DNA of 52,497 bases from Candidatus Poseidoniales archaeon. Lineage in GTDB: Archaea > Thermoplasmatota > Poseidoniia > Poseidoniales > Poseidoniaceae. The position numbers and the translations under genes are program-made. Under the pieces are notes generated by a model. It was given only the letters and a program-made list of their open reading frames with translations. It ran no database searches and was not told where the DNA came from. The stretch spans positions 1 to 52,497 of the forward strand of contig JACETE010000002.1 of NCBI GenBank assembly GCA_013911465.1. The letters are read 5' to 3'. Shown in pieces: positions 3,774 through 28,800 of the stretch; within the stretch, counting starts at the first letter, position 1, and each line of letters begins with the position of its first letter.

Positions 3774-3840
3774 GAGGCATCGTCGACTCAAGCCAACGCC
3801 TTCCCCCTCATATCTTTTGGTACGAACAAACCTCTCAATT

Positions 3841-8518: not shown

Positions 8519-8592
8519 GGGCCTGTAGCTTAGTTGGTTAGAGCACCCGGCTCATAACCGGGCGGTCAAGGGTTCAAATCCCTTCAGGCCCA
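8519..8592 (+). tRNA. tRNA with anticodon CAT (elongator tRNA-Met type; an archaeal tRNA-Ile2 modified at C34 cannot be excluded)
   Basis: A hand-folded 74-nt cloverleaf. Acceptor GGGCCTG/CAGGCCC; D arm GCTT-AGTTGGTTA-GAGC; anticodon arm CCCGG-CTCATAA-CCGGG (CAT at 8553..8555); variable loop CGGTC; T arm AAGGG-TTCAAAT-CCCTT; discriminator A. The G1:C72 pair argues against an initiator tRNA. No CCA is encoded. Confidence 0.93.
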
Positions 8593-13435: not shown

Positions 13436-13526
13436 GAGAGAATCTGAGACTACCAAGCACATGAAGCCTATTGTCCTCTGAGGGGTCAATCGGTTGAATT
13501 ATCAGCCCGACGCTCTAGGGCAAACT

Positions 13527-14789
13527 ATGGGTCGTAGTGTCCTCGTTGTCGGAGGCGGAGGACGAGAGCATGCCTTGTGTCTTGCTCTCTCCCAATCAAA
13601 TTCAATCACTGAAATTCATACCACTCCAGGAAATGCTGGAACTGTTCGTTTCGGATTCAATCATAATGTGAGCGCTTCTGATATTGATGGGCTCGTCAGT
13701 TTGGCAAGAGACTTAGACATCGATTTTGTTGTTGTAGGTCCCGAAGCACCGTTGTGCGATGGGCTGTCTGACAAGTTAATATCAATTGGAATTCCTTGCT
13801 TTGGACCACAGCAGTTGCATGCAGAACTCGAAGGGTCCAAATTGTTTGCAAAAAAAGCGATGAATGCGGCAGGTGTGCCTACTGCAGAATTCGATCTTAT
13901 CGATTCTTCTTCGGACATCAACAAGATACTCGACTCCCGTTCTCATGAACCATGGGTCATCAAGCGAGATGTACTTGCAGGTGGAAAAGGCGTTGTTGTC
14001 ACATCCGATCGAGATGAGGCAAGAGAATTCATTCTTCAATCGATAGAGACGGATGGGCATGTCCTGTTGGAACGATTCTTACCTGGTGAAGAAGCAAGTA
14101 TGCTTGTCGTAATGGATCAATCAGGATACGTTTGTTTGCCTCCCAGTCAAGACCACAAACGAGCTTTTGATGGCGATAAGGGTCCAAACACCGGTGGTAT
14201 GGGAGCATATTGCCCAGCTCCAGTTGTGACCCAAGAAATCCATTCGAAAGTTACTGAACGCATTGTTGGGCCGATGTATGACTATCTTTCATCCATGACA
14301 ATTCCCTATCGAGGGGTGCTTTACGTTGGATTGATGATCGATGAGCAAGGGGATCCCTATGTCGTCGAATTCAATGTACGGTTTGGTGATCCAGAGTGCC
14401 AAGTAACATTGCCATTGATCAAAAGTGACGTAGGTGAACTCCTGTACAGTGCAGCGACTGATACGCTCAACCAAACGACTTGGACCTTCAGGAATCTTCA
14501 CTCGCTCACAGTTGTACTCGCTTCGGAGGGTTATCCTCAATCTGCAATCAAAGGACGCTCTATTCAAGGTGCTGAGCATGCACTTGATACGCCTGAGGCG
14601 TGGGTGTCTCATGCCGGAACGACTGTGGATGAATCAGGAATGCTTGTTTCATCAGGTGGTCGAGTGTTGTCCGTCACTTCAGTAGCACAATCCTTGCAAG
14701 AAGCACGGGAACTGTCATACCATCGAATTCAACAAATATCTCTCGAAGGCTCTCACCACAGAACTGATATTGGACATCGTGCGCTTTGA
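13527..14789 (+). CDS. purD: Phosphoribosylamine--glycine ligase (GAR synthetase)
   Basis: MGRSVLVVGGGGREHAL, VVVGPEAPL, KRDVLAGGKGVVV, GDKGPNTGGMGAY, EFNVRFGDPE and GGRVLSV are classic PurD / ATP-grasp motifs. The track ORF starts at TTG 13494; the ATG at 13527 fits the family N-terminus. Confidence 0.95.
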   Translation: MGRSVLVVGGGGREHALCLALSQSNSITEIHTTPGNAGTVRFGFNHNVSASDIDGLVSLARDLDIDFVVVGPEAPLCDGLSDKLISIGIPCFGPQQLHAELEGSKLFAKKAMNAAGVPTAEFDLIDSSSDINKILDSRSHEPWVIKRDVLAGGKGVVVTSDRDEAREFILQSIETDGHVLLERFLPGEEASMLVVMDQSGYVCLPPSQDHKRAFDGDKGPNTGGMGAYCPAPVVTQEIHSKVTERIVGPMYDYLSSMTIPYRGVLYVGLMIDEQGDPYVVEFNVRFGDPECQVTLPLIKSDVGELLYSAATDTLNQTTWTFRNLHSLTVVLASEGYPQSAIKGRSIQGAEHALDTPEAWVSHAGTTVDESGMLVSSGGRVLSVTSVAQSLQEARELSYHRIQQISLEGSHHRTDIGHRAL

Positions 14790-14913: not shown

Positions 14914-17900
14914 ATGGAAAAGGTATCAAAGACCTCGCAACGCCCTGTTTTTGGATGGCTTATTGCCCCATTAGCAGTACTGATTGCAATACTAGCAAAC
15001 TATGTCGACGGCCTCATGTCGATCGACGTTGAACTGAACAGTGATGCGGTGACACCATTCATCGTCACCGGTGTGGCCGGCCTACTCGCCGTTACACCAC
15101 GCATCCTCCGTGAACTAGGAACCCTTCCAGAGTCTGTATCGCAAACACAAATCTCCCTCGCCATGTTTGTCCTCGCTCTTGTTGGGTCAGGAGTTGCTGA
15201 ATCTCAAATCTCTGGGTTTGTTGGATTCACCTTCTTCGTGGTTCTCTTCGGCGCATATCTTCTCGATACTCGTGAGCGCTACGAATGGATGACAATGCTC
15301 GTATTTGCGGGAGTTGGTGTCCATTCAGCATTCGATATTACGGCTGCTGCCGCTGCAGATTCGTACTTGCCAAGCATGTACGAATTCTCTGAGGGACAAT
15401 CCTATGACGTCTCAACGTTCCAGGAAACAGCACTTGGATTTGTTTTCTTTACATGGTTCACAGTGTTCCCGATTCTCGGTTTGTTGATCGGTGTCGTTGG
15501 TCGTGGTGTTCTCAACCCCGCAGGTGACAAAGGCTGGTTCTCCTTCAACACAGTTGAAAGCGGATGGAACCGTCAAGCACTTCCATTGCAAATTGCCTTG
15601 TTTGTTTGGGCAGCTGCCCATCTTGCCACAATCTGGCATTTTGATCAAGGCTCCATTGCAGACCGTCTTCGATTAGGTGGCCTAGGTGGTGTGGAAGCCA
15701 ATGGATTTGTTGGCTACTACACAGCACTCCTGACGGGAATCCTCGCCATCATCGTATCTGGAATGGTCGCAGAACGCTGGTTTACACGTGCCATGACCTT
15801 GAGTTCGTTGTGGACACTTTACCTCATTGGTACTTGGTACGAAGAAGGATTCTGGACCAACGAGACCTTTGCAGAGTCTTGGGCTCCGTTAATTTGGTTG
15901 GCAATCACGTTCTTCGTCGGTGTCGCAATCTCGATGATTGGAAATCACGAAAAGTACGGTGGCTGGTCAAACAGAGAAGAACACCGTCCGAGTGGCGCTC
16001 GCCAATTCTGGAATGCTCACTGGGCAAGTCTTCTCACAATGGTTGCCTTCTTAGTTGGTTTTGTCATCCGAATTCAATGGTATGCAGTTCCTTCCATGCA
16101 CGCTCTCGGAACCGATGGTTTCGATATGACTGGTGGTTCTGACCCTTGGTACATGAAGCGTGTCGTTGACTACATCCTTGCTCAGAATGCTCACCTTGTC
16201 ATGGACGCAGATCGATTCTATCCAATCGGTGGAGCAAACCCACGTCCTCCTTTGTTTTCCTGGTCGTTGGCTATTGGTGCTATGATTCTTCAACCATTCC
16301 TCGGTGATGATGCTGTATGGTGGAGCATGCTTGCTCTTCCTGCAATTTATGGTGCACTCACCATCTTGCCAGTTGCCGCTATTGCCAAAGATCACTTCGG
16401 AAAGGCTGCAGGTGTCATCGCTGCTTGGTTGATTGCATTCATGCCTGCTCACGTAACCCATTCAACATGGGGACTTGCTGACCACGATTCGTTCGTCATG
16501 CTGTTCATTGCGATTGGATTCATGTTCTATCTGCGAGCCGTTCGCTATGCTGGTTCAGAACGTTTGGTTCGAACCACATCGATTCGCCCGCTCCACATGA
16601 TTCGTGCAATGAGTGCTGTTGCGCAAGAGCGCAAGTATGCTATGTCAAATGCTGTTTTGGCAGGTGTAGCATTTGCTGCTGCAAGCCTTGGATGGAAGGG
16701 ATTCGTAGTCGGACCAGCAATTCTGTTCCTCGCCTATGCTGCACAAGTTGCTATCAACATGTTCCGTCGTCGAGACTCAACAATTCTGAGTACGCTCTTC
16801 TTGACCATGCTGATGACCAACTTCCTCATCGCACTACCATTCTACGCTCATCCGCAGTTGAACCTCATGCTTGATGGAACAGGTTTGCAACCGTTCCTAT
16901 TCATCCTCTTGTTCACCATTGTCATCATGTACATCACCACTGGTTTCCGTGACAAGCCATGGTTGCTCGTCCTTGGTACACTCGCAGTAGGTGCTGCCGT
17001 ATTCCTTGCTTCGCTGTATGTCTTGAAACTCACCAACCTAAGCAACGCTTGGGACGTATTGTTCACCGGTGGTGGCTACTTCACCAAGACGAAGATTTTC
17101 GGTACTGTTGCTGAAGCAAATGCTCCCGATCGTGGATACATGTTTGCAAGTTTCGGACCAATCGTGTTCGTGTTTGCATTGGTCGTAGGATTGACCTCGT
17201 TGTGGAGAGCCTTTAGCCAACGAAGTCAAATTTCGCTTGTCTTTGCAGTGTGGATTTTTACTGCCACATACATGTCTTGGACCGCAGCTCGTTTCCTCTT
17301 CAACGCAACACCAGTTGTCGCCGTTATGGGTGCTGCTGGAATTGTAGGATTCTGGAAGTGGGCGAATTGGGAAGGTCTCGTTCGCAACTGGCGTCGGGCT
17401 GGAATTCGTACTCCTTCGGAGCGAATTGCAGGTGCACGTCGTGCAGTATGGCGAATGCCATCCTTCTCTGCAGTTGTTCTCGTTCTGATCATGCTATCTG
17501 GGCAACAACTCACCTATGGGTTGGACTCAGCCATTCCAAGCAACTCTCCTGCTGAAGGTGACTTGGATGAATCGATTTACTACACGATACCAGACATCAT
17601 GCGCTGGGACGGACTCGGATTCTCTGTTCTCGACAGTCGTGACTACGAAGCCTTTGGAGGCCGTGCATACATGGGCTCATTCGGTAGTGGTTTCAATGGA
17701 CAGTCATGGAACGATGCCCATCAATGGTTATCACAACAAGACGTCTATCACGAAGGTGTAACAGACAAAGCATCCTGTGATGGGGAAGATGGAATTTGGG
17801 ATTCAGGTGAGAGCCTCTGTGAAATGAAATTCGGAGATAAGCCTGCTTTCGTCTCATGGTGGGACTACGGTTTCCAAGCCCTCAACACCGGTCAGCACCC

Positions 17901-20900
17901 TTCCGTATCCGATAACTTCCAGACAGGTATCCCTGCTTCAGGTAACATGTTGTTGGCACGAAGTCAAACAGACCTTGTTGCTATGTTCACACAACATCTC
18001 GCAGTTGGAGATATCACATACAACGTAGGTAAGACAGGCGAGAAAGAATTCACGCCAGCATTCGAATCCGCATTGGATGACCATCTTAACGAACAACAAA
18101 TGGATGAAATTAAATTGATTCTGCTCCAAGATGGAAAGGATCTCGATGAAATGGCAGATGTTGTTGTCGACCATTCCTTTGTTGCATTCAAGAACAAAGG
18201 CGACGCTTACATGACTCGCGGCTACCCGCTTGACTCAAACGGAATTCCTGACGAGTCTCTCGGACTTCACTACCGTGTTTGGGCTGATGGGGAATTGATT
18301 CCTTGTGAGAACCCAAGCGAAGAATTCTGTTTCAACGGGGACTATGTTACTGAAGAATCTGCGAACAGCACATTCAGAAACAATGCAGACGTTAGTTCTC
18401 AAGAAGTAACTGACGTCACGCACTACACCTTCGGAGACTATTGGTACACCTCCGACTTGGTTGAGGAATACCCATCCGTTTCTACGCACATCCATCGTTC
18501 CAATGCACACATTGCTTTGGTCGTACAGTTGTTGACCAATGGTCTAAGTGACGACACGGTCGTTGATCTCTACCATGATGTCATTGAACTCGAAGACAAT
18601 TATGTTGTTCAAGATTACAACGGAGCACCTGGTGCAACGATTGAACGTGACCACGAAATTCGTTACTTTGCTATTGATGACAAGCTCTACCCACGTGCTG
18701 GTCGTTACAATTCAGAGGCTGGTTACAACGGAGGTCGTCCGTTGGGAATCTTCGGTGCACCTACCATCCTTTCTGGACAGGATTTCAACACCTTCACCAA
18801 TGAGGTATACGAAACCAAGCGTGGAGATGAACCTGTTCGTGAGATGGACCGTGAAGCAGTTGACGATGCAATGTTGAAGGACATCTTGGACCAACAATCC
18901 GGAGCAGAAATTCAACCACTGACGGTTCAAGACATACGAATTGATCATCTCCCTGAATTCTTTGATACGATGCTTGCCCGTTCCTATGTGGGATACGGAG
19001 CATCAACACTCGGTGCAGATGCTGGTTCGACGAATCCGCAACCAAGACAGCAACTGGATGAAAGTGCTCGAGGAACGTCCTTCCTCCAGCAAGCTTACCC
19101 TCTACCGGGTGCAATGATGAATCACTTTGTTATTGCAAACTGGTATGATCCAGACACACCAGCAATTCTTGCCAACGACAATGTCAAGGTGATGAAGTAC
19201 TATTCTGGTGCTGAAATCTCAGGAACTGTCATGACTGAAGACGATGGTATGGGACTTCCAAACGCTCGAATTCTTATCGAGCGTGATGCATTCTCTGGAG
19301 AGGATTCAGAAGACCTTGACGAAGACACATACTGGATTCCAATCGGTGTAACTGATGCAGACGAGAATGGTGACTGGAGTTTCCTTGCGCCTGCTGGACG
19401 AATCCGAGTCTCTGCCTTTGCTGGTGTCTTTGATGATACCTTCGCAATTCAGGAGATCCAAAGTGGTGATTACGTCAGTGGATTCAGTGATGTGTTGACA
19501 GATGTCAACGATGATCGTGAAGTCTATGCAATCACCGCAGTCCTTGGCGAAGTTGCAAACATGACCTGGCTCGGAGAAACCACACTCAATGTTACAGGCG
19601 CTCAAGCAGATCGCCATGAAGACGTCACTACTGCAATGGACATCGAAGTCCAGAGTACTGGTGTTTCTGGTACAGTTGCTTGGAGTGGATTTGGTGACTT
19701 CGATGGAGAACCTCTCGTTGAGACCGACTTCATCCTCCGAAACATCTGGGCCATGACCGAGAACTACACGCTCACAACCACAAACGGATCCTTCGACACT
19801 GACGAAACTCGTGTCCTGCAAGGAACTGGAGAGGTTACCTTCTCCGATGTGGGTACCTTCACAAGCGAAGGCGTGGCATTGGCTTACGATTTCACTGGTA
19901 ACTTTACTCGAGAAATCTCCGATGCACGTGTCTTCTCAGGAAACGGCACATGGATTGGTATGGGTACCATTGAAGCTACTTGGGTTCAACACGACAACGC
20001 ATCACTTGATTGTGGTGAGAACAACACCATGCCAGATAATGCAACTCTATGTTTAATCTCAGAAGGCACGGATTTCTCCACCTATCTCTTGGATGGAGAA
20101 GTTACAGCCAACGGACGATTAACGTCTGATGGTGTAAGTACTCTGACGAAGGAACTCGATGGTGAGACCTTTGAAGGAACAGGTATCTTCGAAGGTGTAG
20201 GAACTCTCAACGGTACAGGTCTCTTCATTGGTCCGGGTACGTTCAGCGGTGACATTGTCAACCCCGGTTCGTTCTATCGAACTGGACTTGTCCCCGGTGT
20301 CTACAATATGATTGCATTGATGCCGAATGGAAGAGAAATCCTCCTGCCTGACCCTGTGCAGGTTGGAATCGAACCAACTTATGACCTGTCGATGACCGTA
20401 CCTGCATCACTCTTCGAGGACACACTTACCACCATGGCAGGCGATACAATCCCGAATCAAGAGATTGAATTGATCGATGTCGAACTCGGTGAGGATGAAA
20501 TGATTATTCTCACTTCGGACGAAGAAGGAAATGTTAGTTACGGTCCTATGACGGCTGGAATTTACTATCTCCGAGTTGACCTTGACAACGATGGTTACTA
20601 CGAACTGAACCAAACAATGCAGGTCTACGATGAACCAATGAACTTCACCTTTGACATCGGCGTACCTGAGATGTACGACCTCACCATTACGCTCAATGGT
20701 CCTGAAGGGTTTGACGTTACTGGACGTGAAGTCAACTTCACCGACCCACTTGGCTTGATGCCAATCGATGTCGTATCTGACGAAAACGGCGTTGTTGTCG
20801 TCGAACTTCCGATTGGAGAATGGTCAATCAGTGATAACAGCGATGAGGATTACATCCTGATCGAGGAAGTCATGGTTGAGGATTCGGACTTGACTTTGGA

Positions 20901-23900
20901 CTTCACCTATGCAACCTCTGTGTGGGTCAACGGTTCAATCGATGCTCCAAACACAGCTGGATTTACCTACCAAGAATGGCTTGCTCTTCCTGCCGAAGAG
21001 AAGTTGTACGAGAACGCAAGTTCAGTTCCTGTCCGATTCCATGGTAATGGACTCGAGTTCACGGCAGTAACGGACCAGTTTGGTGAATTCAGTCAACGTT
21101 TGCCAGCTGGAATGACATTCAACATGAATGCTCAGAGTTCAGTGTCAGCATTTGCGGCTGGAACTGTCGTTACAGTCTCGGAAGGAATGAGTACTCTTGA
21201 TGTCCTCATCCTTGGTCCAACTGTCGATGTTGTTGGAGCAGTCAAACTCTTTGACAACAATACGAACTGGAACCAAGATATCCCGAACTACGAACCTGTG
21301 GAGATCCATGCAACCAGTGAAGATGGCGTGGTATGGACTACTGCGACCGATGATGCAGGACTGTTTAACATGCAATTGCTCAACGGAACATGGACCTTTA
21401 GCATCCCTGATGCAGACTACAATGCTGATTCAGTAACGGATTACATCGTCAATGTTGAGGACGGAATGAACCCTGAACCTGTGGAGTTGATCACCAACCC
21501 AGCGAACAGCACTGTGACATTCAACGTGTTCACAGATTTGGGTGATGGTGTCTTCGAGAACGGAACTGCAATTCGACCAGATATCCAATTGATTCCTGTG
21601 TCTGAAGTTGGACAACAAGTGAACATCACTTCGGCTGACTATTCAGCAGATGGTATTGTAGACGTGATTCTCAGTCCGGGAATCTATGCAATCACGACCA
21701 ACAGTTTGGATGCATCTGATGAAAATGCTACGGATGCAAGCCTTGAGATCAACGCCATTCTCGACATTGTCCCAATTGGTTTGACAGGACCTGAAGAAGC
21801 GGTTCTTGTGCCAATTGTTGATGCATGGAGAATGAACGGTACCATTTCATGGGCTAACGGCTCAGCGATGGTCGAGAACTTCCTTCTCTCAACACCTGAT
21901 GGTTCGAATTACGTGCCAATCAGTGTTGATGAAAACGGATCGTTTGCAACCTACGTTCAGAGTGGTGATTACATTGTTGTCGTCGCTCCGATTCTCAACG
22001 GTGATGGAATGATGGAATCACTCCGAATGCCGATCACAATCGATGCAGACTCGTCAGTTCGAACCGACCTTTCCCTTGCTCTTGTTGAAACCATCGAGGT
22101 TTCCCTAACACTGAAGGAGAGCGGAACAGATTCCGAACTTGTCGGTAAGAGGGTCGTTCTTGTCAGCCATGATGGTTACGGAAACGTCACAATGAACCCG
22201 TCTGATGCTGATGGAAACGCTACACAATTGCTCATGCCAGGTACCTGGAGTTTGTACATGAATGAATCCGCAGCACAGCGCTTCTGGACCATTGATACCT
22301 CCGATGCGCCTGTCCTAATGGACACCAATACCTCATTGGGTGTTGTTTATGCAGCACTTGAAGTCGAGATCGGCGGAAAGGCGTACTGGGATACCGATGA
22401 GGATGATATTGCTGATGCAAATGAAGGCGTCGAGGGTGCAAATGTTACGATCCAAGGAGGTAGCATTGATACTGTCGTTGCAACCGATTCCTCTGGTGTA
22501 TGGCGACTGTATGTTCCAATTCTTGAGAACTACACAGTCACTGTCTCGAAGGATGGATTTGGGGTTGTTTCCTATGACGATAACAACACAGGAACTTACG
22601 TTGTTCAGAACGAACCTCTCTCACAAGACATTGAAATGTCTGCTGCAGAAGTAACGGTTACTGGAACAGTAACTGACGTTCTCGATTCATCTCGACTCGA
22701 TGGTGCATCCATCACCTTGTACGGTACATCTGAAAACCAACAAGACTCGATTGATGTCATTGGTACACTCGCTGATGAAACCTTGTCGTTCACAGCAGTT
22801 GTGGAGCCGGGTCAATGGGTCGTAGTTGTTTACGAAGATGACGCACCATTCAACGGTGGTGGCGTAGCTGTTGGACTCCTCGATGCAGAAGTCCAAGACG
22901 GTGGTACCATTGAACTCGTCATGAGTAAGGGTGGATGGGTTGATCTCTCAACAGAGTTCACTTCGTTCAACCTACAAACCTTCAATGCAGGAACCGATGA
23001 AGTTGATTCACCAGTTACTGATGTTGTTGATGTTGAAGTCGATCTTGGAGACGGACGTGCTTGGACACTACCAATTGATTCCGATGGAACCTTGGAAGTT
23101 CTCCTCCCTGCGAACTCTGCAACCTTCAACTCTGAATTCTCCACTGTACAACGTGACCTTGTCATGAATTACACTGCTGGAATTTCGATTGATAATGGAG
23201 ACGAAGGACGTACAGCAGTCATGCTTTCGTTCAACCGTAAGACAAACAGTGATCTCACATTGACTGTCTCAGGTGTTGAGGGAGCTACTGTTCTCGGTGA
23301 TGAAAACCGTGACCTGCTTGCTGTGGTTAATTCATCGGACTCAGACAACTATACATCCATTGAATTTGATGTTGCAGCTCAGTACCAAGGTACAGAAATT
23401 GCAGATCCGTTTGATGTCAGTGGAACCGTCACAGTATCCCCTGACCAGGACCAATGGGCAGTAGAGTTCTACAACGGTACAGACTGGGTTGAGAGCACCA
23501 GCGTACAACTTGGAATCGGAGACGTTGCAGCAAACGCAACCCTCAACGAAAGTGTACGTGCTCGAATTGTCCTACCAACTGTTGAAGCCGCTTGGTGGCT
23601 CGAAAACGGTCATGACATCAATATCCGCTTCTCTGCGGACAGCGGAGACATGACTGAGGTTTCTCTCAATGTTGAGATTCCTCAATACTATGCGTTCAAC
23701 ACAACAGATGTAACGTCGACAATTGGTGTCGCACCCGGTGGTGCTACAACAGCATCTCTAACCATTAACAACAACGGTAACGGTGACGACTCGTTCACGT
23801 ACGAGGTTCTTGACAATCTCCCTGATGGATGGATCATTAGTCCTATGAACGGTGTTACAACCATCGCAAAGGATAACTTGCGTGACCTCGCATTTGCAGT

Positions 23901-24459
23901 CACATCCTCTTCAGACTTTGATGATGGCCAAGTGACAATAACAGTTCGAATTACAAGCGAAGATGGAATCACTCAAGAAGACGTTGAAATCGTCGTCGAA
24001 TCGGCTCGAATCTCATTGAATTGGAATCAAGGTCTTTCGCAGTCACGTAGTAACAACTTCGCTGATGTGGATCCAAACTCGGTCATTATTGTCATCGAGA
24101 ACAACGGATTGCGACCTGCTCAACAAGTTACAGTCTATCTTGACAGCAGTGGTATGAGTGAAATGAACATGACACTCGCCGTACCTGCATCCGGTAGTAC
24201 AGACTTCGAGTTCGTTCTACCTAAGGCAAGTCAAGGTATCACTCGATACGATGTTCGTGCAGTTGTTCTTGGTGACGATGCAAACTACACTACGGGTGAC
24301 GCTGTTGATGATGACTTCGGAATTGAATACCTTGTACAAGGTTCTGAAGAAACGTCAAACTCAATTGTCAATGTGGTCATTATCGCACTGATCTTTATCA
24401 TCCTCTACTTTGGAGTCAAGGCGTCTTCCCGAGCTCGTGGCTCAGGTAGCCGATTCTGA
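14914..24459 (+). CDS. aglB: Giant (3181 aa) AglB/STT3-type oligosaccharyltransferase fusion: extra polytopic N-domain + AglB core + roughly 2100-aa beta-sandwich-rich extracellular extension + C-terminal TM anchor
   Basis: WWDYG is encoded at 17857..17871 (aa 982-986). An EL1-like motif DPWYMKRVVDY...DADRFYPIGGANPRPPLFSW starts at 16141 (about aa 410), and GLADHDSF is also present. There are many hydrophobic helices before aa 980. Downstream are CarboxypepD_reg-like signatures (GTVMTEDDGMGLPNARILIE; SSGVWRLYVPILENYTVTVSKDGF) and CARDB-like stretches. A terminal TM (IVNVVIIALIFIILYFGV, 24361..24420) is followed by a basic tail. It is a single uninterrupted ORF in the track. Confidence 0.85.
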   Translation: MEKVSKTSQRPVFGWLIAPLAVLIAILANYVDGLMSIDVELNSDAVTPFIVTGVAGLLAVTPRILRELGTLPESVSQTQISLAMFVLALVGSGVAESQISGFVGFTFFVVLFGAYLLDTRERYEWMTMLVFAGVGVHSAFDITAAAAADSYLPSMYEFSEGQSYDVSTFQETALGFVFFTWFTVFPILGLLIGVVGRGVLNPAGDKGWFSFNTVESGWNRQALPLQIALFVWAAAHLATIWHFDQGSIADRLRLGGLGGVEANGFVGYYTALLTGILAIIVSGMVAERWFTRAMTLSSLWTLYLIGTWYEEGFWTNETFAESWAPLIWLAITFFVGVAISMIGNHEKYGGWSNREEHRPSGARQFWNAHWASLLTMVAFLVGFVIRIQWYAVPSMHALGTDGFDMTGGSDPWYMKRVVDYILAQNAHLVMDADRFYPIGGANPRPPLFSWSLAIGAMILQPFLGDDAVWWSMLALPAIYGALTILPVAAIAKDHFGKAAGVIAAWLIAFMPAHVTHSTWGLADHDSFVMLFIAIGFMFYLRAVRYAGSERLVRTTSIRPLHMIRAMSAVAQERKYAMSNAVLAGVAFAAASLGWKGFVVGPAILFLAYAAQVAINMFRRRDSTILSTLFLTMLMTNFLIALPFYAHPQLNLMLDGTGLQPFLFILLFTIVIMYITTGFRDKPWLLVLGTLAVGAAVFLASLYVLKLTNLSNAWDVLFTGGGYFTKTKIFGTVAEANAPDRGYMFASFGPIVFVFALVVGLTSLWRAFSQRSQISLVFAVWIFTATYMSWTAARFLFNATPVVAVMGAAGIVGFWKWANWEGLVRNWRRAGIRTPSERIAGARRAVWRMPSFSAVVLVLIMLSGQQLTYGLDSAIPSNSPAEGDLDESIYYTIPDIMRWDGLGFSVLDSRDYEAFGGRAYMGSFGSGFNGQSWNDAHQWLSQQDVYHEGVTDKASCDGEDGIWDSGESLCEMKFGDKPAFVSWWDYGFQALNTGQHPSVSDNFQTGIPASGNMLLARSQTDLVAMFTQHLAVGDITYNVGKTGEKEFTPAFESALDDHLNEQQMDEIKLILLQDGKDLDEMADVVVDHSFVAFKNKGDAYMTRGYPLDSNGIPDESLGLHYRVWADGELIPCENPSEEFCFNGDYVTEESANSTFRNNADVSSQEVTDVTHYTFGDYWYTSDLVEEYPSVSTHIHRSNAHIALVVQLLTNGLSDDTVVDLYHDVIELEDNYVVQDYNGAPGATIERDHEIRYFAIDDKLYPRAGRYNSEAGYNGGRPLGIFGAPTILSGQDFNTFTNEVYETKRGDEPVREMDREAVDDAMLKDILDQQSGAEIQPLTVQDIRIDHLPEFFDTMLARSYVGYGASTLGADAGSTNPQPRQQLDESARGTSFLQQAYPLPGAMMNHFVIANWYDPDTPAILANDNVKVMKYYSGAEISGTVMTEDDGMGLPNARILIERDAFSGEDSEDLDEDTYWIPIGVTDADENGDWSFLAPAGRIRVSAFAGVFDDTFAIQEIQSGDYVSGFSDVLTDVNDDREVYAITAVLGEVANMTWLGETTLNVTGAQADRHEDVTTAMDIEVQSTGVSGTVAWSGFGDFDGEPLVETDFILRNIWAMTENYTLTTTNGSFDTDETRVLQGTGEVTFSDVGTFTSEGVALAYDFTGNFTREISDARVFSGNGTWIGMGTIEATWVQHDNASLDCGENNTMPDNATLCLISEGTDFSTYLLDGEVTANGRLTSDGVSTLTKELDGETFEGTGIFEGVGTLNGTGLFIGPGTFSGDIVNPGSFYRTGLVPGVYNMIALMPNGREILLPDPVQVGIEPTYDLSMTVPASLFEDTLTTMAGDTIPNQEIELIDVELGEDEMIILTSDEEGNVSYGPMTAGIYYLRVDLDNDGYYELNQTMQVYDEPMNFTFDIGVPEMYDLTITLNGPEGFDVTGREVNFTDPLGLMPIDVVSDENGVVVVELPIGEWSISDNSDEDYILIEEVMVEDSDLTLDFTYATSVWVNGSIDAPNTAGFTYQEWLALPAEEKLYENASSVPVRFHGNGLEFTAVTDQFGEFSQRLPAGMTFNMNAQSSVSAFAAGTVVTVSEGMSTLDVLILGPTVDVVGAVKLFDNNTNWNQDIPNYEPVEIHATSEDGVVWTTATDDAGLFNMQLLNGTWTFSIPDADYNADSVTDYIVNVEDGMNPEPVELITNPANSTVTFNVFTDLGDGVFENGTAIRPDIQLIPVSEVGQQVNITSADYSADGIVDVILSPGIYAITTNSLDASDENATDASLEINAILDIVPIGLTGPEEAVLVPIVDAWRMNGTISWANGSAMVENFLLSTPDGSNYVPISVDENGSFATYVQSGDYIVVVAPILNGDGMMESLRMPITIDADSSVRTDLSLALVETIEVSLTLKESGTDSELVGKRVVLVSHDGYGNVTMNPSDADGNATQLLMPGTWSLYMNESAAQRFWTIDTSDAPVLMDTNTSLGVVYAALEVEIGGKAYWDTDEDDIADANEGVEGANVTIQGGSIDTVVATDSSGVWRLYVPILENYTVTVSKDGFGVVSYDDNNTGTYVVQNEPLSQDIEMSAAEVTVTGTVTDVLDSSRLDGASITLYGTSENQQDSIDVIGTLADETLSFTAVVEPGQWVVVVYEDDAPFNGGGVAVGLLDAEVQDGGTIELVMSKGGWVDLSTEFTSFNLQTFNAGTDEVDSPVTDVVDVEVDLGDGRAWTLPIDSDGTLEVLLPANSATFNSEFSTVQRDLVMNYTAGISIDNGDEGRTAVMLSFNRKTNSDLTLTVSGVEGATVLGDENRDLLAVVNSSDSDNYTSIEFDVAAQYQGTEIADPFDVSGTVTVSPDQDQWAVEFYNGTDWVESTSVQLGIGDVAANATLNESVRARIVLPTVEAAWWLENGHDINIRFSADSGDMTEVSLNVEIPQYYAFNTTDVTSTIGVAPGGATTASLTINNNGNGDDSFTYEVLDNLPDGWIISPMNGVTTIAKDNLRDLAFAVTSSSDFDDGQVTITVRITSEDGITQEDVEIVVESARISLNWNQGLSQSRSNNFADVDPNSVIIVIENNGLRPAQQVTVYLDSSGMSEMNMTLAVPASGSTDFEFVLPKASQGITRYDVRAVVLGDDANYTTGDAVDDDFGIEYLVQGSEETSNSIVNVVIIALIFIILYFGVKASSRARGSGSRF

Positions 24460-24514: not shown

Positions 24515-25720
24515 ATGGAGGAACTGCGAGGAGTTGAATTGCTTCCCGAACCAGGGGAGCCAAAGATTCTCTCAGCAGTTGATGCATCAACCAGTGGTCA
24601 TGAAGGCCAGTGGAGGGCTGAAGTCATGGGTTGGGCGCCTGTAGTGCCTGATTCAATTGCATTCCGTCCAAGGCGCATCTTTTCTCTCGCATCTGGCATT
24701 GTCATTGCTCTTTTCATGGGTATCACCGTTCTTCTGTGGCAATCGGACTTGCTGCTCTTGCAATTGCCTCCTGCTACATCTGAATGGGCATTTGAAGATT
24801 CAGAAATTCGAGAACTTCAACAGGATGGCCTTTCGGGAGAAGGGGTTCGGGTATGCATGGTGGATACGGGATTGTCCCTCAGTCATTCCTCACTTGATGA
24901 CTCGAGTGTCGTATTCGAGGATTTTGTTGGGAATTCTGCAGAACCGAAGGATTACGGATCCATCGCCCACGGTACGCTGATGGCAGGAATTCTACTCTCG
25001 AATGATTTCCAGAAGGGAATTGCTCCCAATGTCACGCTGGGTATGGCAGCCGCATTAAGTGCAAATGGTGACAACAATACGGGTTCAGAATCGAGAGTAG
25101 CTGATGCTATTCGATGGTGTATCTTTGATTTTGAAGCCGATATAATCTCTTTATCACTTGGAGGAGAACAAGATCAATCTGCCTCAAGAGAAGGTCCTGC
25201 TGTTTCCGCAACGCGGCAAGCAATTGACGCTGGCATCTATGTTGTGGCTGCCGCAGGAAACGATGGTGGTCAAGGTGATGACGGTTATGTTAGTGCACCT
25301 GGCAACGTCAATCTTGCAATTACAGTCGGTGCCTCGGATCGTGACGGTTCAGTCTGGACACAATCCTCGATGGGTGAGGCCATGGATTCCGATGGAAATC
25401 TGCGCGTGTATCCGAATCAAAAACCAGAATTGACTGCACCAGGCGTCGATATTTTGTCCACTGGTCTCGATGATCAATGGTATACTTCGAGTGGAACGTC
25501 TGATGCGACCGTCTTTGTTGCTGGAGCGCTTTCATTGATTTTGGAAGCCCATCCAGAACTCAAACCAAATTCCACATCAACAACAGCGTGCATTCAACTT
25601 GTCAAGCAAGCTTTGGCGCGGTCTTTGAGTCCAGATTTGGTTCATGATTCAATGGAAGGTTATGGCCAACTCAAGGCCAAATCATGGCTTAATCAAGTGT
25701 CTGAGGACACAAATTGTTGA
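24515..25720 (+). CDS. Membrane-anchored subtilisin-like serine protease (peptidase S8)
   Basis: Catalytic D-H-S order: VRVCMVDTGLS, SIAHGTLMAGIL, SLSLGG (oxyanion region) and SSGTSDATVFVAGA. N-terminal TM segment IFSLASGIVIALFMGITVLLW. An SD-like GGGAGAGG lies just upstream of the ATG. Confidence 0.85.
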   Translation: MEELRGVELLPEPGEPKILSAVDASTSGHEGQWRAEVMGWAPVVPDSIAFRPRRIFSLASGIVIALFMGITVLLWQSDLLLLQLPPATSEWAFEDSEIRELQQDGLSGEGVRVCMVDTGLSLSHSSLDDSSVVFEDFVGNSAEPKDYGSIAHGTLMAGILLSNDFQKGIAPNVTLGMAAALSANGDNNTGSESRVADAIRWCIFDFEADIISLSLGGEQDQSASREGPAVSATRQAIDAGIYVVAAAGNDGGQGDDGYVSAPGNVNLAITVGASDRDGSVWTQSSMGEAMDSDGNLRVYPNQKPELTAPGVDILSTGLDDQWYTSSGTSDATVFVAGALSLILEAHPELKPNSTSTTACIQLVKQALARSLSPDLVHDSMEGYGQLKAKSWLNQVSEDTNC

Positions 25721-25821: not shown

Positions 25822-28800
25822 ATGGGGCGCAGTATTATATTTGTTCAGCCACTCCATTGCAAAAGAGGAATGAACATGCGAATTGCAAATGTTGGAAAAA
25901 GTATAGGTCTTGTAGGACTCCTTCTTACATCCCTAATGATAGGATTGGTCACTGTACCTACTGCTAGCGCAGTTAATGAAACATCAAACGGAACCATTGT
26001 AACCACGGAAACATGGAGCGGTACGCATACTCTTACCGGCGATGTTACCGTTGCAGAAGGTGCAAAGCTTGTCATCAATGCAGGTACTACAATCAATATT
26101 CCACCTGGCGTCTACATCGACGTTGAAGGAGCAATTTGTGCAGGATCTGCCGCATGCGGTGCCTCTCAAGGAAGCGCATCATCCCAAATTCGATTTGAAT
26201 GGGCGACTCCTGCAGACTATTCCGTCGCTGGACGCTGTTATCAACAAGGAAATCAATTGCTAACCAATTCTGATGCTGCTTGCGGTTCAGGTGTTATTAT
26301 TCGCAGCACCATCAACCAAGCATCGACTGGATTCTCATATGTTTCATTCAACAATGCATACGGATTCCCAATTTACGTCCAAACACTGCAAGCTGTTCAG
26401 TACGGGACACTGATCTTTGAAGGTTCCTCAGCAACTGCGGACAATTTGGCATTCTCAAACATCAATACATCAAACATCATTGCTCTTGATTTTGCAGCAC
26501 CGACCATTCGTGACTCAACATTCACGATTGGTGATGACGGTCGAGGATACGATGCCGCAGCAGTTCGAGCATACGAGGCCGGTGCAGGGATTCTCTCTGC
26601 CTTAACCATCACAGGATCGACATTCACGGGTAACACACAAGCTCAATGCGGTAACCAAGGCGGTGGCCGTGTTCTGATTTACGCTGAATCCTCTTACGTC
26701 TCGATGGACAATTTGGACATCAAGGACAATGCTTACGGTGTATTTTTCAAAGGTTCATCGGGATCACTTGGGAACACCACTTTCGATGTTTTGTGCAATG
26801 CGATTGACACCAACTCCTACAAAACAACAGGTGACTTTGCTCACACCCTCTATCTCGACAACAACATTATCACCACAGGTGAGGGTGCTGGAATCACGGC
26901 CTATGACGGTGCGATTGTAACTGCAACAAGGAACACCATTTCTGGCGCATCAGGTGGTTCAGGATTTGGTATCCGTGATTCTACAGTTATCGCTCACGAA
27001 AACACAGTAGGGCCAATCACAGGATTCAACGGTTTTTGGGTCTATGGTCAATCAGAGGTTGAACTCGAAAACAACACCATTCAAGATACCGCTAAAGAGC
27101 CTGTTCAAATCGGAGAATACCACTACCGAGACCAAGGTAGTAATTATCCAGGTCCATCTCCAAATCGTGCGTACATCGCAAACAACATCATCTCGAACAA
27201 CTCAGGAACATGCAACTCCCTGTGGATGTATGGAGGAGATTTCCTTTGTCCAGCAATTCACGTCTTCACATCTTCAGCAACCATCGTCGATAACACCATT
27301 ACAAACAACGCAGGAGACGGCCTTCGAATCAAGGGCTCCATTGTGAACGTTCAAGGCAACCAGATTGAAGCAGGTCAATTCGCTGCTAACATTACACACT
27401 TTGACAATCAATATGGGCAGAAGTATGGTTCGATTGGATATTTCTCTGGGAACACATGGACAAATGCTACCCAAATCTACAACATTTCAGAATCCCGAGT
27501 AACCGTTCAATCGGAATACATTCCTGATGCTGGTGGAGATTACTCCTACCCTGTCATGCTTCAATGGCTTGGTGCAGAGTGTCCATTCGTTCAATCCGAG
27601 TGTCTCCTCTTGCCAGATACGGCTGTCGTTCCACCGCGTGACATGCCACTTGCGATCGAACTTGTCAACAATTCAACGGTATTCTCATTCGCCGACTTGC
27701 AGAATTTCGATGCATCGAAGATTCATGTTCAGAATCAGAATTCTGCTTGGGGTTCACAAGTACGTCAAGGTGAATTGGTCCGTTACCAAGTCAAGGCACA
27801 GAACAGCAATGTTGCTGGTGCAACCGTCATCATCAAGGATGCTACAGGTTTGCCAATTTACGAACTAACAACCGATAGTTTCGGATTCACACAACAAGTT
27901 TCTCTCCCATCTGACTTCTTACTCGACCGAAACTGGAATCATTTCGTAGGGGAGACTGGCGTTACTGTACCAGGCTCAGATCCAAGTAACCCAACCATCC
28001 TCGACGAAGACACATGTTCAGATGGTTACGACAATGACGGAGATACGTTCGTCGATGCAGATGACCCTGATTGCGCAAACGGCCGAGAACTGCCGTTTTA
28101 CATTGTTGAAGCTTACAAGTTTGGTAAGGGTAAGAAAGACTTCGATTTCGTTCTCAGTGGTTCTGTTGATGACGTTATCAGCCTCGACAACCTAAGGCCA
28201 AGTGTGACCGTCGAGCAATACGATGGAGATTCGTTTGCAATCAATGCGGTCATCACTGGTACAGCATGGGATGGACAGTCTGGTCCATATCCTCTGGATG
28301 TCATCGCATACGATCGACAATTCGGAATGATTGAGCGTGTCGAAATTCAACCACCTGGCAGCACCGATTGGTACTATGCAGTCGACACATCAGGTGCAAA
28401 CGGAGAACTCACGAAAGAAAATCATCCGTTCAAGACATGGACTTTCGATTGGGATCTTTCAGCTCACCCTGACGGTGAAAGCGACGTAACCTTCCGTATT
28501 CGTTCCTATGACGGATTGGATTACTCTCCAATTGAAGTACGTAAATTCAAACTGAATTTGGTACCTCCAACACTCTATCTTAACGAACCGTTGGATGGCT
28601 CAACCCACTCCAATGGAAAGATTCTCTTCACTGGAACAGCATCGGATCCGTATTCCGGTACGTGGGGATCCGACATTCAAGACATCTGGTTTGACGTTAG
28701 TGGGCCAAATGGCTATGCCTCTCACTTTGCCATTGATGGTGCAGTAGCTTGGGCATACGATTGGAACTTTGAAGAACTTGAAACAGGTGAATACACTTTC

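What the first reader, a model, noticed from the sequence alone, without database searches (positions are those of the whole stretch)
14914..24459. 3181-aa oligosaccharyltransferase: the AglB core lies between an extra polytopic N-domain and a huge sequon-rich extension anchored at its C-terminus
Seen, as one uninterrupted ORF:
- About 400 aa of additional hydrophobic helices come before the AglB-type EL1 motif (DPWYMKRVV...DRFYPIGGANPRPPLFSW, from 16141).
- The catalytic WWDYG sits only at aa 982-986 (17857..17871).
- About 2100 further residues of beta-sandwich-like modules follow (CarboxypepD_reg-like and CARDB-like strings).
- A final TM plus basic tail is at 24361..24459.
- By eye I count about 42 N-x-S/T sequons (x not P) downstream of WWDYG. 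My rough expectation from composition is about 20; it should be recomputed.

Established knowledge: characterised archaeal AglB proteins are several-fold smaller, with WWDYG roughly mid-protein and a soluble C-terminal domain.

Inference:
- The enzyme is covalently fused to a giant surface-layer- or adhesin-like domain that is itself a likely N-glycosylation substrate.
- That domain is tethered to the membrane at both ends, forming a giant extracellular loop.
- This could couple glycosylation to envelope architecture. It could also be a paralogue that has lost catalysis and been repurposed.
Basis: partly seen in the sequence, partly recalled or inferred. Interest (0 to 1): 0.8.

Follow-up and report, generated by a model that had tools for sequence, protein, structure and literature searches.

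The report
Giant membrane-tethered archaeal oligosaccharyltransferase (AglB)
This is a real, conserved 3181-residue version of the archaeal N-glycosylation enzyme AglB from marine group II archaea, with an extra 10-helix membrane domain in front and a 1700-residue, sequon-rich, membrane-anchored surface array behind; related giant AglBs occur across the phylum Thermoplasmatota, and I found no paper describing them.

Summary
There is one uninterrupted 3181-aa ORF. WWDYG sits at aa 982-986 and the EL1 motif starts at nt 16141. A C-terminal TM plus basic tail lies at 24361-24459. There are 42 sequons after WWDYG against 20.8 expected (z about 5-6).

It is not an assembly artefact. More than 100 independent assemblies of Poseidoniales (both MGII families) encode full-length 3027-3338-aa homologues down to about 45% identity, in the same gene neighbourhood.

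All testable catalytic motifs are invariant, and an AlphaFold model matches solved AglB, STT3 and PglB structures. The "dead paralogue" reading is therefore not supported.

The main new result is that the architecture is not unique to this window. AglBs of 2000-2800 aa are widespread in Thermoplasmatota, including Methanomassiliicoccales and DHVE2. They have a prealbumin-like (NOMO-like) domain array, a C-terminal anchor and sequon enrichment, and they often sit next to purD, as here. Only the 10-TM N-domain and a 210-aa insert are MGII-specific.

Fourteen sequons are invariant across the family, which argues that the extension really is glycosylated.

The function of the extension (envelope spacer or scaffold) is inferred, not shown. 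I class this as a new variant of a known kind.

The parts
14914..24459 (+). Complete ORF, 3181 aa: giant AglB/STT3 oligosaccharyltransferase
   Evidence: full-length homologues in more than 100 independent assemblies
14914..16017 (+). N-domain, aa 1-368: 10 predicted TM helices, N-terminus inside. Found only in Poseidoniales-type giants. No family or fold match.
   Evidence: Hydropathy and positive-inside analysis. AF2 helices at aa 13-343, pLDDT mostly 70-87. No Pfam hit at E<=1. Present only in the >=3100-aa group. No similarity to the STT3 TM domain.
16018..17523 (+). STT3 membrane domain, aa 369-870 (about 13 TM helices); the most conserved region (69% identity to the ~50% group)
   Evidence: Pfam STT3; alignment to AfAglB-L 3WAJ; Foldseek E 1e-13 to AglB/STT3/PglB; conservation profile
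16132..16152 (+). EL1 motif GGSDPWY (aa 407-413). D410 corresponds to AfAglB D47, a metal and acceptor carboxamide ligand.
   Evidence: alignment; invariant
16480..16488 (+). Second acidic motif D523-H524-D525, aligned with AfAglB D161-H162-H163
   Evidence: invariant in 59 diverse sequences
17104..17115 (+). EL5 TIXE-type motif T731-V-A-E734, aligned with AfAglB T357-I-A-E360
   Evidence: T and E invariant across the clade
17857..17871 (+). WWDYG catalytic motif, aa 982-986, followed by the conserved HPSVSDNFQ
   Evidence: invariant
18004..18633 (+). MGII-specific alpha/beta insert, aa 1031-1240, between the post-WWDYG helix and the conserved RYFAID block
   Evidence: Present only in the >=3100-aa group; confidently folded in both AF2 models
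18634..19209 (+). Rest of the AglB external domain, aa 1241-1432. Contains the clade-wide block IRYFAIDDKLYP...GIFGAPTIL, the probable counterpart of the DK/MI Ser/Thr-pocket segment.
   Evidence: Shared by 106 of 150 nearest relatives; invariant Y, D, P, AP, L across the clade; positional analogy with AfAglB-S1 3VU0
19210..24360 (+). Extracellular extension, aa 1433-3149: divergent array of prealbumin/Ig-like beta-sandwich modules carrying 41 sequons
   Evidence: CarboxypepD_reg, SpaA, CARDB and NPCBM_assoc hits; sequon statistics; relatives score CarboxypepD_reg x7 and NOMO domains
22417..22629 (+). Best-recognised CarboxypepD_reg (prealbumin-like) domain, aa 2502-2572
   Evidence: 52.2 bits; cut-off 32.3
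23644..23988 (+). Choice-of-anchor-T-like / NPCBM_assoc-like module, aa 2911-3025; the terminal modules are shared with the 2100-2800-aa relatives
24361..24459 (+). C-terminal TM anchor (aa 3150-3168) plus cytoplasmic basic tail ending in -RF, and the stop codon
   Evidence: The tail pattern (TM, then YGG/YFG-[VIF]-K, basic residues, final F) is conserved in MGII. No archaeosortase-signal model matches.
24515..25720 (+). Signal-anchored S8 subtilase 55 nt downstream; a conserved neighbour in MGIIa and MGIIb and a possible processing partner
13494..14789 (+). purD, a conserved neighbour of the giant aglB in MGII and in 38 of 80 other Thermoplasmatota loci (marks an orthologous locus)

Best explanation
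**What it is.** This gene is the Poseidoniales (marine group II; here Poseidoniaceae) orthologue of a clade of giant AglB oligosaccharyltransferases that spans the Thermoplasmatota.

**Shown**
- It is one conserved polypeptide made of these parts, in order:
  - a 10-TM N-domain;
  - a 13-TM-type STT3 core with all testable catalytic motifs intact;
  - the external WWDYG domain, interrupted by a 210-aa insert;
  - about 1700 aa of beta-sandwich modules;
  - a C-terminal TM anchor with a basic tail.

**Inferred mechanism**
- The STT3 core is an active OST. It transfers lipid-linked glycan to Asn in N-x-S/T sequons of exported proteins at the outer face of the membrane.
- The enzyme's own 2280-residue external stretch (aa 870-3149) is threaded out after the core has been inserted. 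It is then N-glycosylated at its conserved NxT sites, either by the same molecule or by neighbouring ones.
- The C-terminal helix acts as a stop-transfer anchor. The glycosylated array therefore forms a loop or arch fixed to the membrane at both ends.
- By analogy with NOMO (12 prealbumin-like domains plus a C-terminal TM, an ER-lumen spacer), and because some relatives carry archaeosortase-type C-terminal signals, I propose the array is a structural glycoprotein element of the cell envelope. It would act as a spacer, scaffold or glycocalyx in lineages that largely lack classical walls, and it would keep the OST embedded in that layer.
- The N-domain is an MGII-specific accessory membrane module of unknown role.
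For: **Continuity and conservation**
- More than 100 full-length homologues (3027-3338 aa) come from ENA, NCBI, JGI, Tara and Logan assemblies at 100% down to about 45% identity.
- Gene order is identical (CarS, purD, AglB, S8, beta-helix protein, STAND) in MGIIa and MGIIb.

**Catalysis**
- Alignment to AfAglB-L gives D410, D523-H-D525, T731..E734 and WWDYG.
- These are invariant or >=90% conserved in 59 diverse sequences and across the clade.
- The STT3 TM domain is the most conserved region.
- The AF2 model (pLDDT 76, pTM 0.77) matches 3WAK, 7E9S, human STT3A/B, yeast Stt3 and PglB at E 1e-13 to 1e-4.

**Clade**
- The exhaustive representative search lists 10 proteins of 3100-3300 aa and about 73 of 2000-2800 aa among the best 150 hits.
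- At least 594 loci are found in species-representative genomes. Their titles name Thermoplasmata, Methanomassiliicoccales/Methanomassiliicoccus, Methanomethylophilaceae, DHVE2 and others.
- Among 60 complete ORFs the median length is 2152 aa, 54 have a C-terminal TM plus basic tail, and the median sequon excess is 1.73x.
- purD linkage is shared.

**Extension as substrate**
- Sequon excess z is about 6 with local shuffles, and NxT outnumbers NxS 30 to 11.
- Fourteen sequons are invariant in 26 homologues, and 19 of 42 are kept in at least 14 of the 17 distant ones.
- The catalytic external domain itself is sequon-poor: 1 against 3.6 expected.

**Array nature**
- CarboxypepD_reg is present here.
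- A relative scores CarboxypepD_reg x7 plus NOMO_5th and NOMO1-like_9th.
- The clade profile hits NOMO2 (9c7v_B) at E 1e-27.
- C-termini of some relatives reach the Loki-CTERM and Heimdall-CTERM cut-offs and approach the PGF-CTERM cut-off.

**Expression hint**
- An oligosaccharyltransferase gene is among the genes enriched in active MGIIb metatranscriptomes (PMC9723583).
Against: - There is no experimental evidence of activity, glycosylation, abundance or localisation.
- The DK/MI Ser/Thr-pocket motif could not be identified with certainty.
- The MGII-only profile does not itself hit NOMO. Only one or two modules of this protein reach Pfam thresholds, so "array of prealbumin-like domains" is partly extrapolated from relatives.
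- NOMO similarity is explained by repeated CarboxypepD_reg domains and need not mean a shared function.
- The window's C-terminal tail matches no known sorting signal.
- I could not test whether a second, canonical aglB exists elsewhere in these genomes.
- An envelope-scaffold role would need high copy number, which is unknown.
Confidence: 0.72

Rival explanations
1. Polyprotein or precursor. The extension is cleaved from the enzyme after translocation and self-glycosylation. The protease could be the adjacent signal-anchored S8 subtilase in MGII, with archaeosortase trimming the C-terminus in relatives that carry PGF/Loki-type signals. The result would be a separate surface (S-layer-like) glycoprotein anchored by the C-terminal helix or by a lipid.
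For: - An S8 peptidase with an N-terminal signal anchor lies 55 nt downstream and is conserved there in MGIIa and MGIIb.
- Some relatives end in archaeosortase-type sorting domains typical of processed surface glycoproteins.
- An acidic low-complexity stretch (SGEDSEDLDED, about aa 1461-1471) sits at the start of the array.
Against: - No conserved cleavage motif was identified.
- The S8 neighbour is absent from the 80 non-MGII loci, although the fusion is present there.
- The fusion has been kept intact across a whole phylum, which suggests the covalent link itself matters.
Confidence: 0.12
2. The extension is mainly an adhesin or substrate-capture device, for example for attachment to particles or polymers by these heterotrophs. 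Its fusion to AglB is a convenient membrane anchor rather than an envelope scaffold.
For: - Ig-like, CARDB, SpaA and SdrD_B-type modules are typical of adhesins.
- The neighbourhood is rich in other giant secreted proteins: 1466, 1916 and 1798 aa.
Against: - The length is tightly constrained, with most homologues at 3146-3338 aa across MGII and about 2150 aa elsewhere. Sequons are conserved. Adhesins usually vary in repeat number and evolve fast.
- Both ends are membrane-tethered, which limits reach.
- The array occurs in lineages with very different lifestyles: gut and sediment methanogens, vent DHVE2 and halophilic relatives.
Confidence: 0.12
3. Catalytically dead paralogue of AglB, repurposed as a membrane anchor for a surface protein.
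For: - The NCBIfam archaeo_STT3 score is far below the subfamily cut-off: 164 against 450 bits.
- The DK/MI motif was not clearly recognised.
Against: - D410, DHD, TVAE and WWDYG are all invariant.
- The STT3 TM domain is the most conserved part of the protein.
- The fold matches active OSTs.
- The gene sits in a conserved locus shared with the other Thermoplasmatota AglBs.
Confidence: 0.03
4. Assembly or gene-calling artefact that joins an aglB gene to a downstream surface-protein gene.
For: One polished long-read contig splits the gene into 1213 + 1972 aa.
Against: - That split is a single inserted base next to an A-run. The same contig also breaks a neighbouring gene into three pieces.
- More than 100 other assemblies from different projects keep one ORF.
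- The same fusion exists in hundreds of species.
Confidence: 0.01

Closest known systems
Archaeal AglB, long type (e.g. Archaeoglobus fulgidus AglB-L, PDB 3WAJ/3WAK/7E9S; characterised AglBs of Haloferax, Methanococcus, Sulfolobus)
   Same: - Same STT3/GT-C fold.
- Same EL1 Asp, second acidic motif, TIXE and WWDYG motifs.
- External C-terminal catalytic domain.
   Different: - Characterised enzymes are 754-1054 aa with 13-15 TMs (PMC5131992). This one has 3181 aa and about 24 TMs.
- It adds a 10-TM N-domain, a 210-aa insert after WWDYG, about 1700 aa of beta-sandwich array and a C-terminal TM anchor.
- It scores below the TIGR04154 cut-off.
Uncharacterised 2000-2800-aa AglBs of other Thermoplasmatota (Methanomassiliicoccales, DHVE2, Thermoplasmata MAGs)
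   Same: - 30-37% identical core.
- Shared RYFAxDxRL...GIFYAP block.
- Beta-sandwich array, terminal module, C-terminal TM plus basic tail, sequon excess and purD linkage.
   Different: - They lack the N-domain and the 210-aa insert.
- Their arrays are readily recognised as CarboxypepD_reg/NOMO-type, whereas the MGII array has diverged.
- Some end in archaeosortase-type signals.
Eukaryotic NOMO (BOS complex subunit; PDB 9C7V)
   Same: Same architecture as the extension: a long luminal or extracytoplasmic string of prealbumin-like domains ending in one TM and a short tail. NOMO sits at the Sec translocon, where OST also sits, and sets ER-sheet spacing (PMC11186639). The clade profile hits NOMO2 at E 1e-27.
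   Different: - NOMO is not fused to STT3.
- The similarity is explained by repeated CarboxypepD_reg domains.
- The MGII profile itself gives no NOMO hit.
- No evidence of orthology.
Archaeal S-layer / surface glycoproteins with PGF-CTERM (e.g. the Haloferax volcanii S-layer glycoprotein)
   Same: Ig-like domain strings that are heavily N-glycosylated and C-terminally anchored. Relatives of this protein carry PGF/Loki/Heimdall-type C-terminal signals.
   Different: - Those proteins are separate substrates of AglB, not part of it.
- The window's tail has no such signal.
- Lattice formation and abundance are unknown.

Membership tests
STT3/AglB oligosaccharyltransferase (GT-C, PF02516) | Match to the STT3 profile above the curated cut-off | tested here: met
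   PF02516, aa 381-803, 44.3 bits against 24.5
STT3/AglB oligosaccharyltransferase (GT-C, PF02516) | Acidic residue in EL1 (AfAglB D47 / PglB D56) | tested here: met
   GGSDPWY aligns with Af GGNDPWY; D410 is invariant
STT3/AglB oligosaccharyltransferase (GT-C, PF02516) | Second metal-binding motif (DxD / DxH; AfAglB D161, H163) | tested here: met
   D523-H524-D525 aligns with Af D161-H-H163; invariant in 59 sequences
STT3/AglB oligosaccharyltransferase (GT-C, PF02516) | TIXE motif in EL5 | tested here: met
   T731-V-A-E734 aligns with Af TIAE; T and E invariant across the clade
STT3/AglB oligosaccharyltransferase (GT-C, PF02516) | WWDYG motif in the external domain | tested here: met
   aa 982-986; invariant
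STT3/AglB oligosaccharyltransferase (GT-C, PF02516) | DK or MI motif forming the Ser/Thr pocket | tested here: inconclusive
   - No strict DxxK or MxxIxxx(I/V/W) motif is conserved.
- The clade-wide block RYFAxDxRL(F/Y)P...GIFxAP (aa 1250-1287) occupies the corresponding position after the post-WWDYG helix, by comparison with 3VU0.
- No confident 3D model of this region was obtained.
STT3/AglB oligosaccharyltransferase (GT-C, PF02516) | STT3 fold of the membrane and WWDYG domains | tested here: met
   AF2 model (pLDDT 76) against PDB: 3WAK 1e-13, 7E9S 3e-13, STT3A/B 1e-11 to 1e-9, PglB 1e-6
STT3/AglB oligosaccharyltransferase (GT-C, PF02516) | Transfers lipid-linked oligosaccharide to Asn (enzyme activity) | not testable with these tools
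   Needs biochemistry or genetics
NCBIfam TIGR04154 archaeo_STT3 (archaeosortase-A-associated subfamily) | Score at or above the subfamily cut-off (450 bits) | tested here: not met
   164 bits over aa 376-1019
Archaeosortase substrates (PGF-CTERM, Loki-CTERM, Heimdall-CTERM) | C-terminal tripartite sorting signal recognised by the family models | tested here: not met
   The window tail gives no hit at E<=1. Relatives P0151 and P0224 reach the Loki or Heimdall cut-offs, and PGF-CTERM scores 21.6 against 24.5.
NOMO-type prealbumin-like domain array | Tandem CarboxypepD_reg/NOMO domains followed by one C-terminal TM | tested here: inconclusive
   - In the window, one CarboxypepD_reg domain is above cut-off, with a second weak one, and the C-terminal TM is present.
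- No NOMO-specific Pfam hit was found in the window protein, and the MGII profile gives no NOMO2 hit.
- Relatives clearly match.
Archaeal S-layer glycoprotein | Forms the 2-D surface lattice; among the most abundant cell proteins | not testable with these tools
   Only circumstantial evidence: sequon excess and a membrane anchor

The most novel reading that the evidence does not exclude
In Thermoplasmatota, including the ocean's abundant marine group II archaea, the N-glycosylating enzyme may itself be a major building block of the cell envelope. It would be a self-glycosylating, NOMO-like rod or arch tethered at both ends, setting the spacing or architecture of the surface layer and coupling glycosylation at the translocon directly to envelope assembly. 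A further, weaker extension of this reading is that such OST-linked prealbumin arrays are evolutionarily related to the translocon-associated NOMO of eukaryotes.
Probability: 0.18. Interest if true: 0.85.

Novelty: new variant of a known kind. Interest (0 to 1): 0.62.

Why it matters
- **What is new about the enzyme.** AglB is the one universal enzyme of archaeal N-glycosylation, and all studied examples have about 750-1050 residues. Here a whole phylum carries versions two to four times larger. That phylum includes some of the most abundant planktonic archaea in the ocean, as well as gut and sediment methanogens.
- **The unusual coupling.** The enzyme is covalently joined to a large, conserved surface array that is apparently glycosylated and anchored in the membrane. 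Putting an enzyme and a probable substrate or scaffold in one chain is unusual.
- **Link to an open question.** The cell envelope of marine group II archaea has not been characterised, because they are uncultivated.
- **It is testable.** The shorter (about 2150-aa) form occurs in metagenome-assembled genomes assigned to Methanomassiliicoccus, a genus with cultured members, so its role could be tested by proteomics, cryo-ET and truncation experiments.
- **Annotation.** These genes are currently labelled "STT3 domain-containing", "GT39 family", "carboxypeptidase regulatory-like" or "hypothetical". The annotation should be corrected.

Tried and rejected
- **First AF2 model (aa 370-1500, 49 close homologues).** Mean pLDDT was 49.9 and the membrane part was unusable. 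I replaced it with a model of aa 1-1200 built on a more diverse alignment. As a result the 1241-1500 region, which holds the putative DK/MI segment, has no confident model.
- **Origin of the N-domain.**
  - No Pfam or NCBIfam hit.
  - No similarity to the STT3 TM domain and no internal duplication by hhalign.
  - No significant PDB fold match beyond the STT3 core.
  - An HMM of the N-domain found nothing in the +/-8 kb flanks of 80 non-MGII aglB loci, so there is no evidence of fusion with a neighbouring gene.
- **Counting repeat modules** with an HMM of the 2495-2580 domain found only that copy; the array is too diverged.
- **NOMO relationship.** It is seen for the clade profile but not for the MGII-only profile, so I treat it as an architectural analogy only.
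- **Literature.** Nine searches found no paper that describes giant AglBs in MGII or Thermoplasmatota. Subscription-only papers such as AglB surveys were not searchable.
- **A second aglB in the same genome** could not be tested. The collection scans return only local loci, and the patterns that the tool derived for the single genome scan were specific to this clade.
Full report
**1.

- The + strand carries one ORF, 14914..24459, of 3181 codons without a stop.
  - D410 of GGSDPWYMKRVV is encoded at nt 16141.
  - WWDYG is aa 982-986, nt 17857-17871.
  - The only strong hydrophobic segment after aa 870 is aa 3150-3168. It is followed by KASSRARGSGSRF, nt 24361-24456.
- Domain hits:
  - Pfam finds STT3 at aa 381-803, above its cut-off.
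  - AglB_core-like matches around WWDYG, just below its cut-off.
  - CarboxypepD_reg matches aa 2502-2572.
  - NCBIfam finds archaeo_STT3 at aa 376-1019 (164 bits, below the 450-bit subfamily cut-off) and a choice-of-anchor-T-like module at aa 2911-3025.
  - Scanning the extension piecewise adds only weak SpaA, CarboxypepD_reg, NPCBM_assoc and CARDB hits.
- The sequon count is exactly as reported: 42 after WWDYG against 20.8 +/- 4.1 in shuffles.
  - All but one lie in aa 1500-3149 (41 against 17.7, z 6.2).
  - The enzyme's own external domain, aa 871-1500, has 1 against 3.6 expected.
  - The excess survives shuffling within 10-80-residue windows (z about 6).
  - It is direction-specific: 41 N-x-[ST] against 25 [ST]-x-N.
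  - NxT is preferred over NxS by 30 to 11.
  - The three other large surface proteins in the window are not comparably enriched.

**2. It is not an artefact**

- A search of 5.8 billion clustered proteins returned more than 100 full-length homologues of 3146-3230 aa. They come from ENA, NCBI, JGI, Tara and Logan assemblies, at 100% down to 49% identity.
- Several at 99% identity are named [quoted passage not shown].
- A profile search added more, of 3027-3338 aa, including UniRef entries from "uncultured marine group II/III euryarchaeote" records.
- One cluster contains a Thalassarchaeaceae (MGIIb) member.
- Loci at about 50% identity keep the same gene order in MGIIa and MGIIb: TctA ... CarS, purD, giant AglB, S8 peptidase, a beta-helix protein of about 1450 aa, and a STAND/TPR regulator.
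- One polished long-read contig splits the gene into 1213 + 1972 aa. The cause is a single extra base beside an A-run, and the same contig also breaks a neighbouring gene into three pieces. This is a sequencing error.

**3. Anatomy**

- **N-domain, aa 1-368.**
  - Hydropathy and the positive-inside rule give 10 TM helices.
  - The second AlphaFold model shows the same 10 helices with moderate confidence (aa 1-1200; 59-sequence alignment; pLDDT 76, pTM 0.77).
  - An even number of helices preserves the STT3 topology, with EL1 outside.
- **STT3 core.**
  - It aligns to A. fulgidus AglB-L: D47 to D410; D161-H-H163 to D523-H-D525; TIAE(E360) to T731-V-A-E734; WWDYG to WWDYG.
  - All are invariant or nearly so in 49 MGII sequences, in 59 more diverse ones, and across the wider clade.
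  - The STT3 membrane domain is the best conserved part: 69% identity to the ~50% group, against 36-48% for most of the extension and 41% for the N-domain.
  - Foldseek places the model with AfAglB (1e-13), human STT3A/B, yeast Stt3 and PglB. Nothing significant is attributable to the N-domain.
- **After WWDYG.**
  - A helix is followed by a 210-aa alpha/beta insert, aa 1031-1240. It is confidently folded and MGII-only.
  - Next comes a block shared by the whole clade, IRYFAIDDKLYP...GIFGAPTIL.
  - By position it corresponds to the strand and Ser/Thr-pocket (DK/MI) segment of short AglBs.
- **From about aa 1433.** A CarboxypepD_reg-like module opens about 1700 aa of beta-rich sequence, which ends in the TM anchor.
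- **Overall topology.** The predicted topology is therefore about 24 TMs with a 2280-residue external stretch fixed at both ends.

**4. The wider family**

- An exhaustive HMMER search of 1.84 billion representative proteins with aa 370-1100 gave 809 hits.
- The best 150 fall into three length modes:
  - 10 at 3100-3300 aa, where the STT3 match starts near residue 345-405;
  - about 73 at 2000-2800 aa, where the STT3 match starts near residue 5-145, so there is no N-domain;
  - 26 at 1000-1300 aa, many of them probably fragments.
- Source names for these are Thermoplasmata and Thermoplasmatota archaeon.
- Nearly all proteins of at least 1900 aa end in a TM plus basic tail. They carry 2-4 times the expected number of sequons.
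- A scan of one genome per species found at least 594 loci. The best 80 are from Thermoplasmata, Methanomassiliicoccales (including Methanomassiliicoccus sp.), Methanomethylophilaceae, DHVE2, Halarchaeoplasma, Natronoplasma and Saliniplasma MAGs.
- Among 60 complete ORFs in these loci:
  - the median length is 2152 aa;
  - 54 have the C-terminal anchor;
  - the median sequon excess is 1.73x.
- purD lies beside aglB in 38 of these 80 loci, as in MGII. This argues that the MGII giant is the orthologue of these genes and not an extra paralogue.
- BLAST of the window's parts against the 150 representatives shows:
  - the N-domain and the insert are confined to the >=3100-aa group;
  - the 1241-1500 block is shared by 106 of 150;
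  - the array is only patchily similar;
  - the last 280 aa resemble the terminal module of the shorter proteins.
- In the shorter proteins the array is plainly prealbumin-like: CarboxypepD_reg x7 at E 1e-52, plus NOMO_5th and NOMO1-like_9th.
- The clade profile hits human NOMO2 at 1e-27. The MGII-only profile does not.
- Some relatives end in signals that reach the Loki-CTERM or Heimdall-CTERM cut-offs and approach PGF-CTERM. The window's tail matches none.

**5. Are the sequons functional?**

- In an alignment of 26 homologues, 14 sequons of the extension are invariant.
- 19 of the window's 42 are retained in at least 14 of the 17 sequences at about 50% identity.
- Sequon Asn residues are better conserved than other Asn residues of the extension: 0.52 against 0.32, p = 0.02.
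- Together with the NxT bias and the forward/reverse asymmetry across the family (1142 against 493), this is good indirect evidence that these sites are used.

**6. Interpretation**

- *Shown:*
  - a single conserved polypeptide;
  - an STT3 core with intact catalytic motifs and the correct fold;
  - a predicted external array anchored at both ends;
  - sequons that are conserved;
  - a phylum-wide family.
- *Inferred:*
  - the core is an active OST;
  - the array is N-glycosylated, in cis or by neighbouring molecules, as it emerges from the translocon;
  - the array serves as a glycosylated structural element of the envelope. This rests on analogy with NOMO, a string of prealbumin-like domains with a C-terminal TM that sets ER-sheet spacing and sits at the translocon (PMC11186639). 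It also rests on the archaeosortase-type signals in relatives.
- *Rivals:*
  - proteolytic release of the array by the conserved, signal-anchored S8 subtilase next door;
  - an adhesin role;
  - a dead paralogue, which is disfavoured;
  - an artefact, which is refuted.
- The only expression hint is that an oligosaccharyltransferase gene is among those enriched in active MGIIb metatranscriptomes (PMC9723583).

**7. Novelty**

- Characterised AglBs have 754-1054 aa and 13-15 TMs (PMC5131992).
- Nine full-text searches found no description of giant AglBs.
- The sequences are public but carry only automatic names.
- I therefore class this as a new variant of a known kind: a genuine AglB with an undescribed, conserved architecture.
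The N-domain and the insert are MGII-specific. The giant anchored array is not.

**8. Limits**

- No experiment bears on activity, glycosylation, abundance or processing.
- The DK/MI segment and the fold of most of the array are unresolved for this protein.
- Whether a second aglB is present elsewhere in MGII genomes was not testable with the tools available.

Noticed in passing
window 24515-25720 (+): An S8 subtilase with an N-terminal signal anchor (RPRRIF, then a TM at about aa 55-73) lies 55 nt downstream of the giant aglB. The adjacency is conserved in MGIIa and MGIIb but absent from the 80 other Thermoplasmatota loci. It is a possible processing partner.
   Followed up: partly
window 13494-14789 (+); loci L003-L082: purD sits next to aglB in MGII and in 38 of 80 other Thermoplasmatota loci. 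There is no obvious functional reason for this old linkage, but it is useful as a marker of orthology.
   Followed up: partly
window 24361-24456; homologues P0001-P0134: MGII giant AglBs all end with the same tail pattern: acidic/Ser linker, TM, Y-G/F-G-[VIF]-K, basic residues, and a final Phe (-RF, -KF or -PF). It matches no known sorting-signal model. It could be a lineage-specific signal or a cytoplasmic docking motif.
   Followed up: partly
proteins P0151, P0155, P0156, P0160, P0207, P0208, P0224; locus L068: Some 2300-2700-aa relatives end in PGF/PEF-type tripartite signals that reach the Loki-CTERM or Heimdall-CTERM cut-offs. This implies that an oligosaccharyltransferase polypeptide may be processed by an archaeosortase.
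   Followed up: partly
window 19414-20403 (aa 1501-1830): This is the most conserved part of the extension (60% identity to the ~50% group). It is rich in G-T-G-x-F-x-G-like repeats (GTGEVTFS, GNGTWIGMGT, GTGIFEGVGTLNGTGLFIGPGTFSG), has an invariant Cys pair (C1700/C1713) and has dense invariant sequons. It has no family match and occurs only in the MGII-type giants.
   Followed up: no
window 25822-30222, 37499-43249, 43299-48695 (+): Three further very large predicted secreted proteins (1466, 1916 and 1798 aa) lie in the window; the first has Beta_helix and Big_7 domains. All are acidic and very poor in Lys (0.9-2.2%). Unlike the AglB extension they are not clearly sequon-enriched (13/13.8, 27/18.0 and 17/14.7 observed/expected).
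   Followed up: partly
window 32746-36439 (-): This is an operon of three proteins with N-terminal hydrophobic, pilin-like starts (156, 729 and 346 aa; weak Pilin_N, and DUF7289 in the homologous locus). It may encode a type IV pilus-like or archaellum-unrelated surface structure. It is adjacent to a STAND/TPR regulator at 30236-32749.
   Followed up: no
locus L085 13580-13710 (ENA ERZ28548088, 925-kb polished long-read contig): The giant gene is split 1213 + 1972 aa by a 1-nt insertion beside an A-run, and a neighbouring gene is split in three. Long-read MGII assemblies may therefore under-report such giant genes as fragments (compare P0332-P0337).
   Followed up: yes
window 8519-8592 (+): A single tRNA gene is the only Rfam match in the window. 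The region 962-3840 has no ORF of 150 aa or more.
   Followed up: no
window 17524-19413 (aa 871-1500): The enzyme's own external catalytic domain is depleted in sequons (1 against 3.6 expected), while the attached array is enriched about 2.3-fold. This suggests selection against self-modification near the active site.
   Followed up: partly
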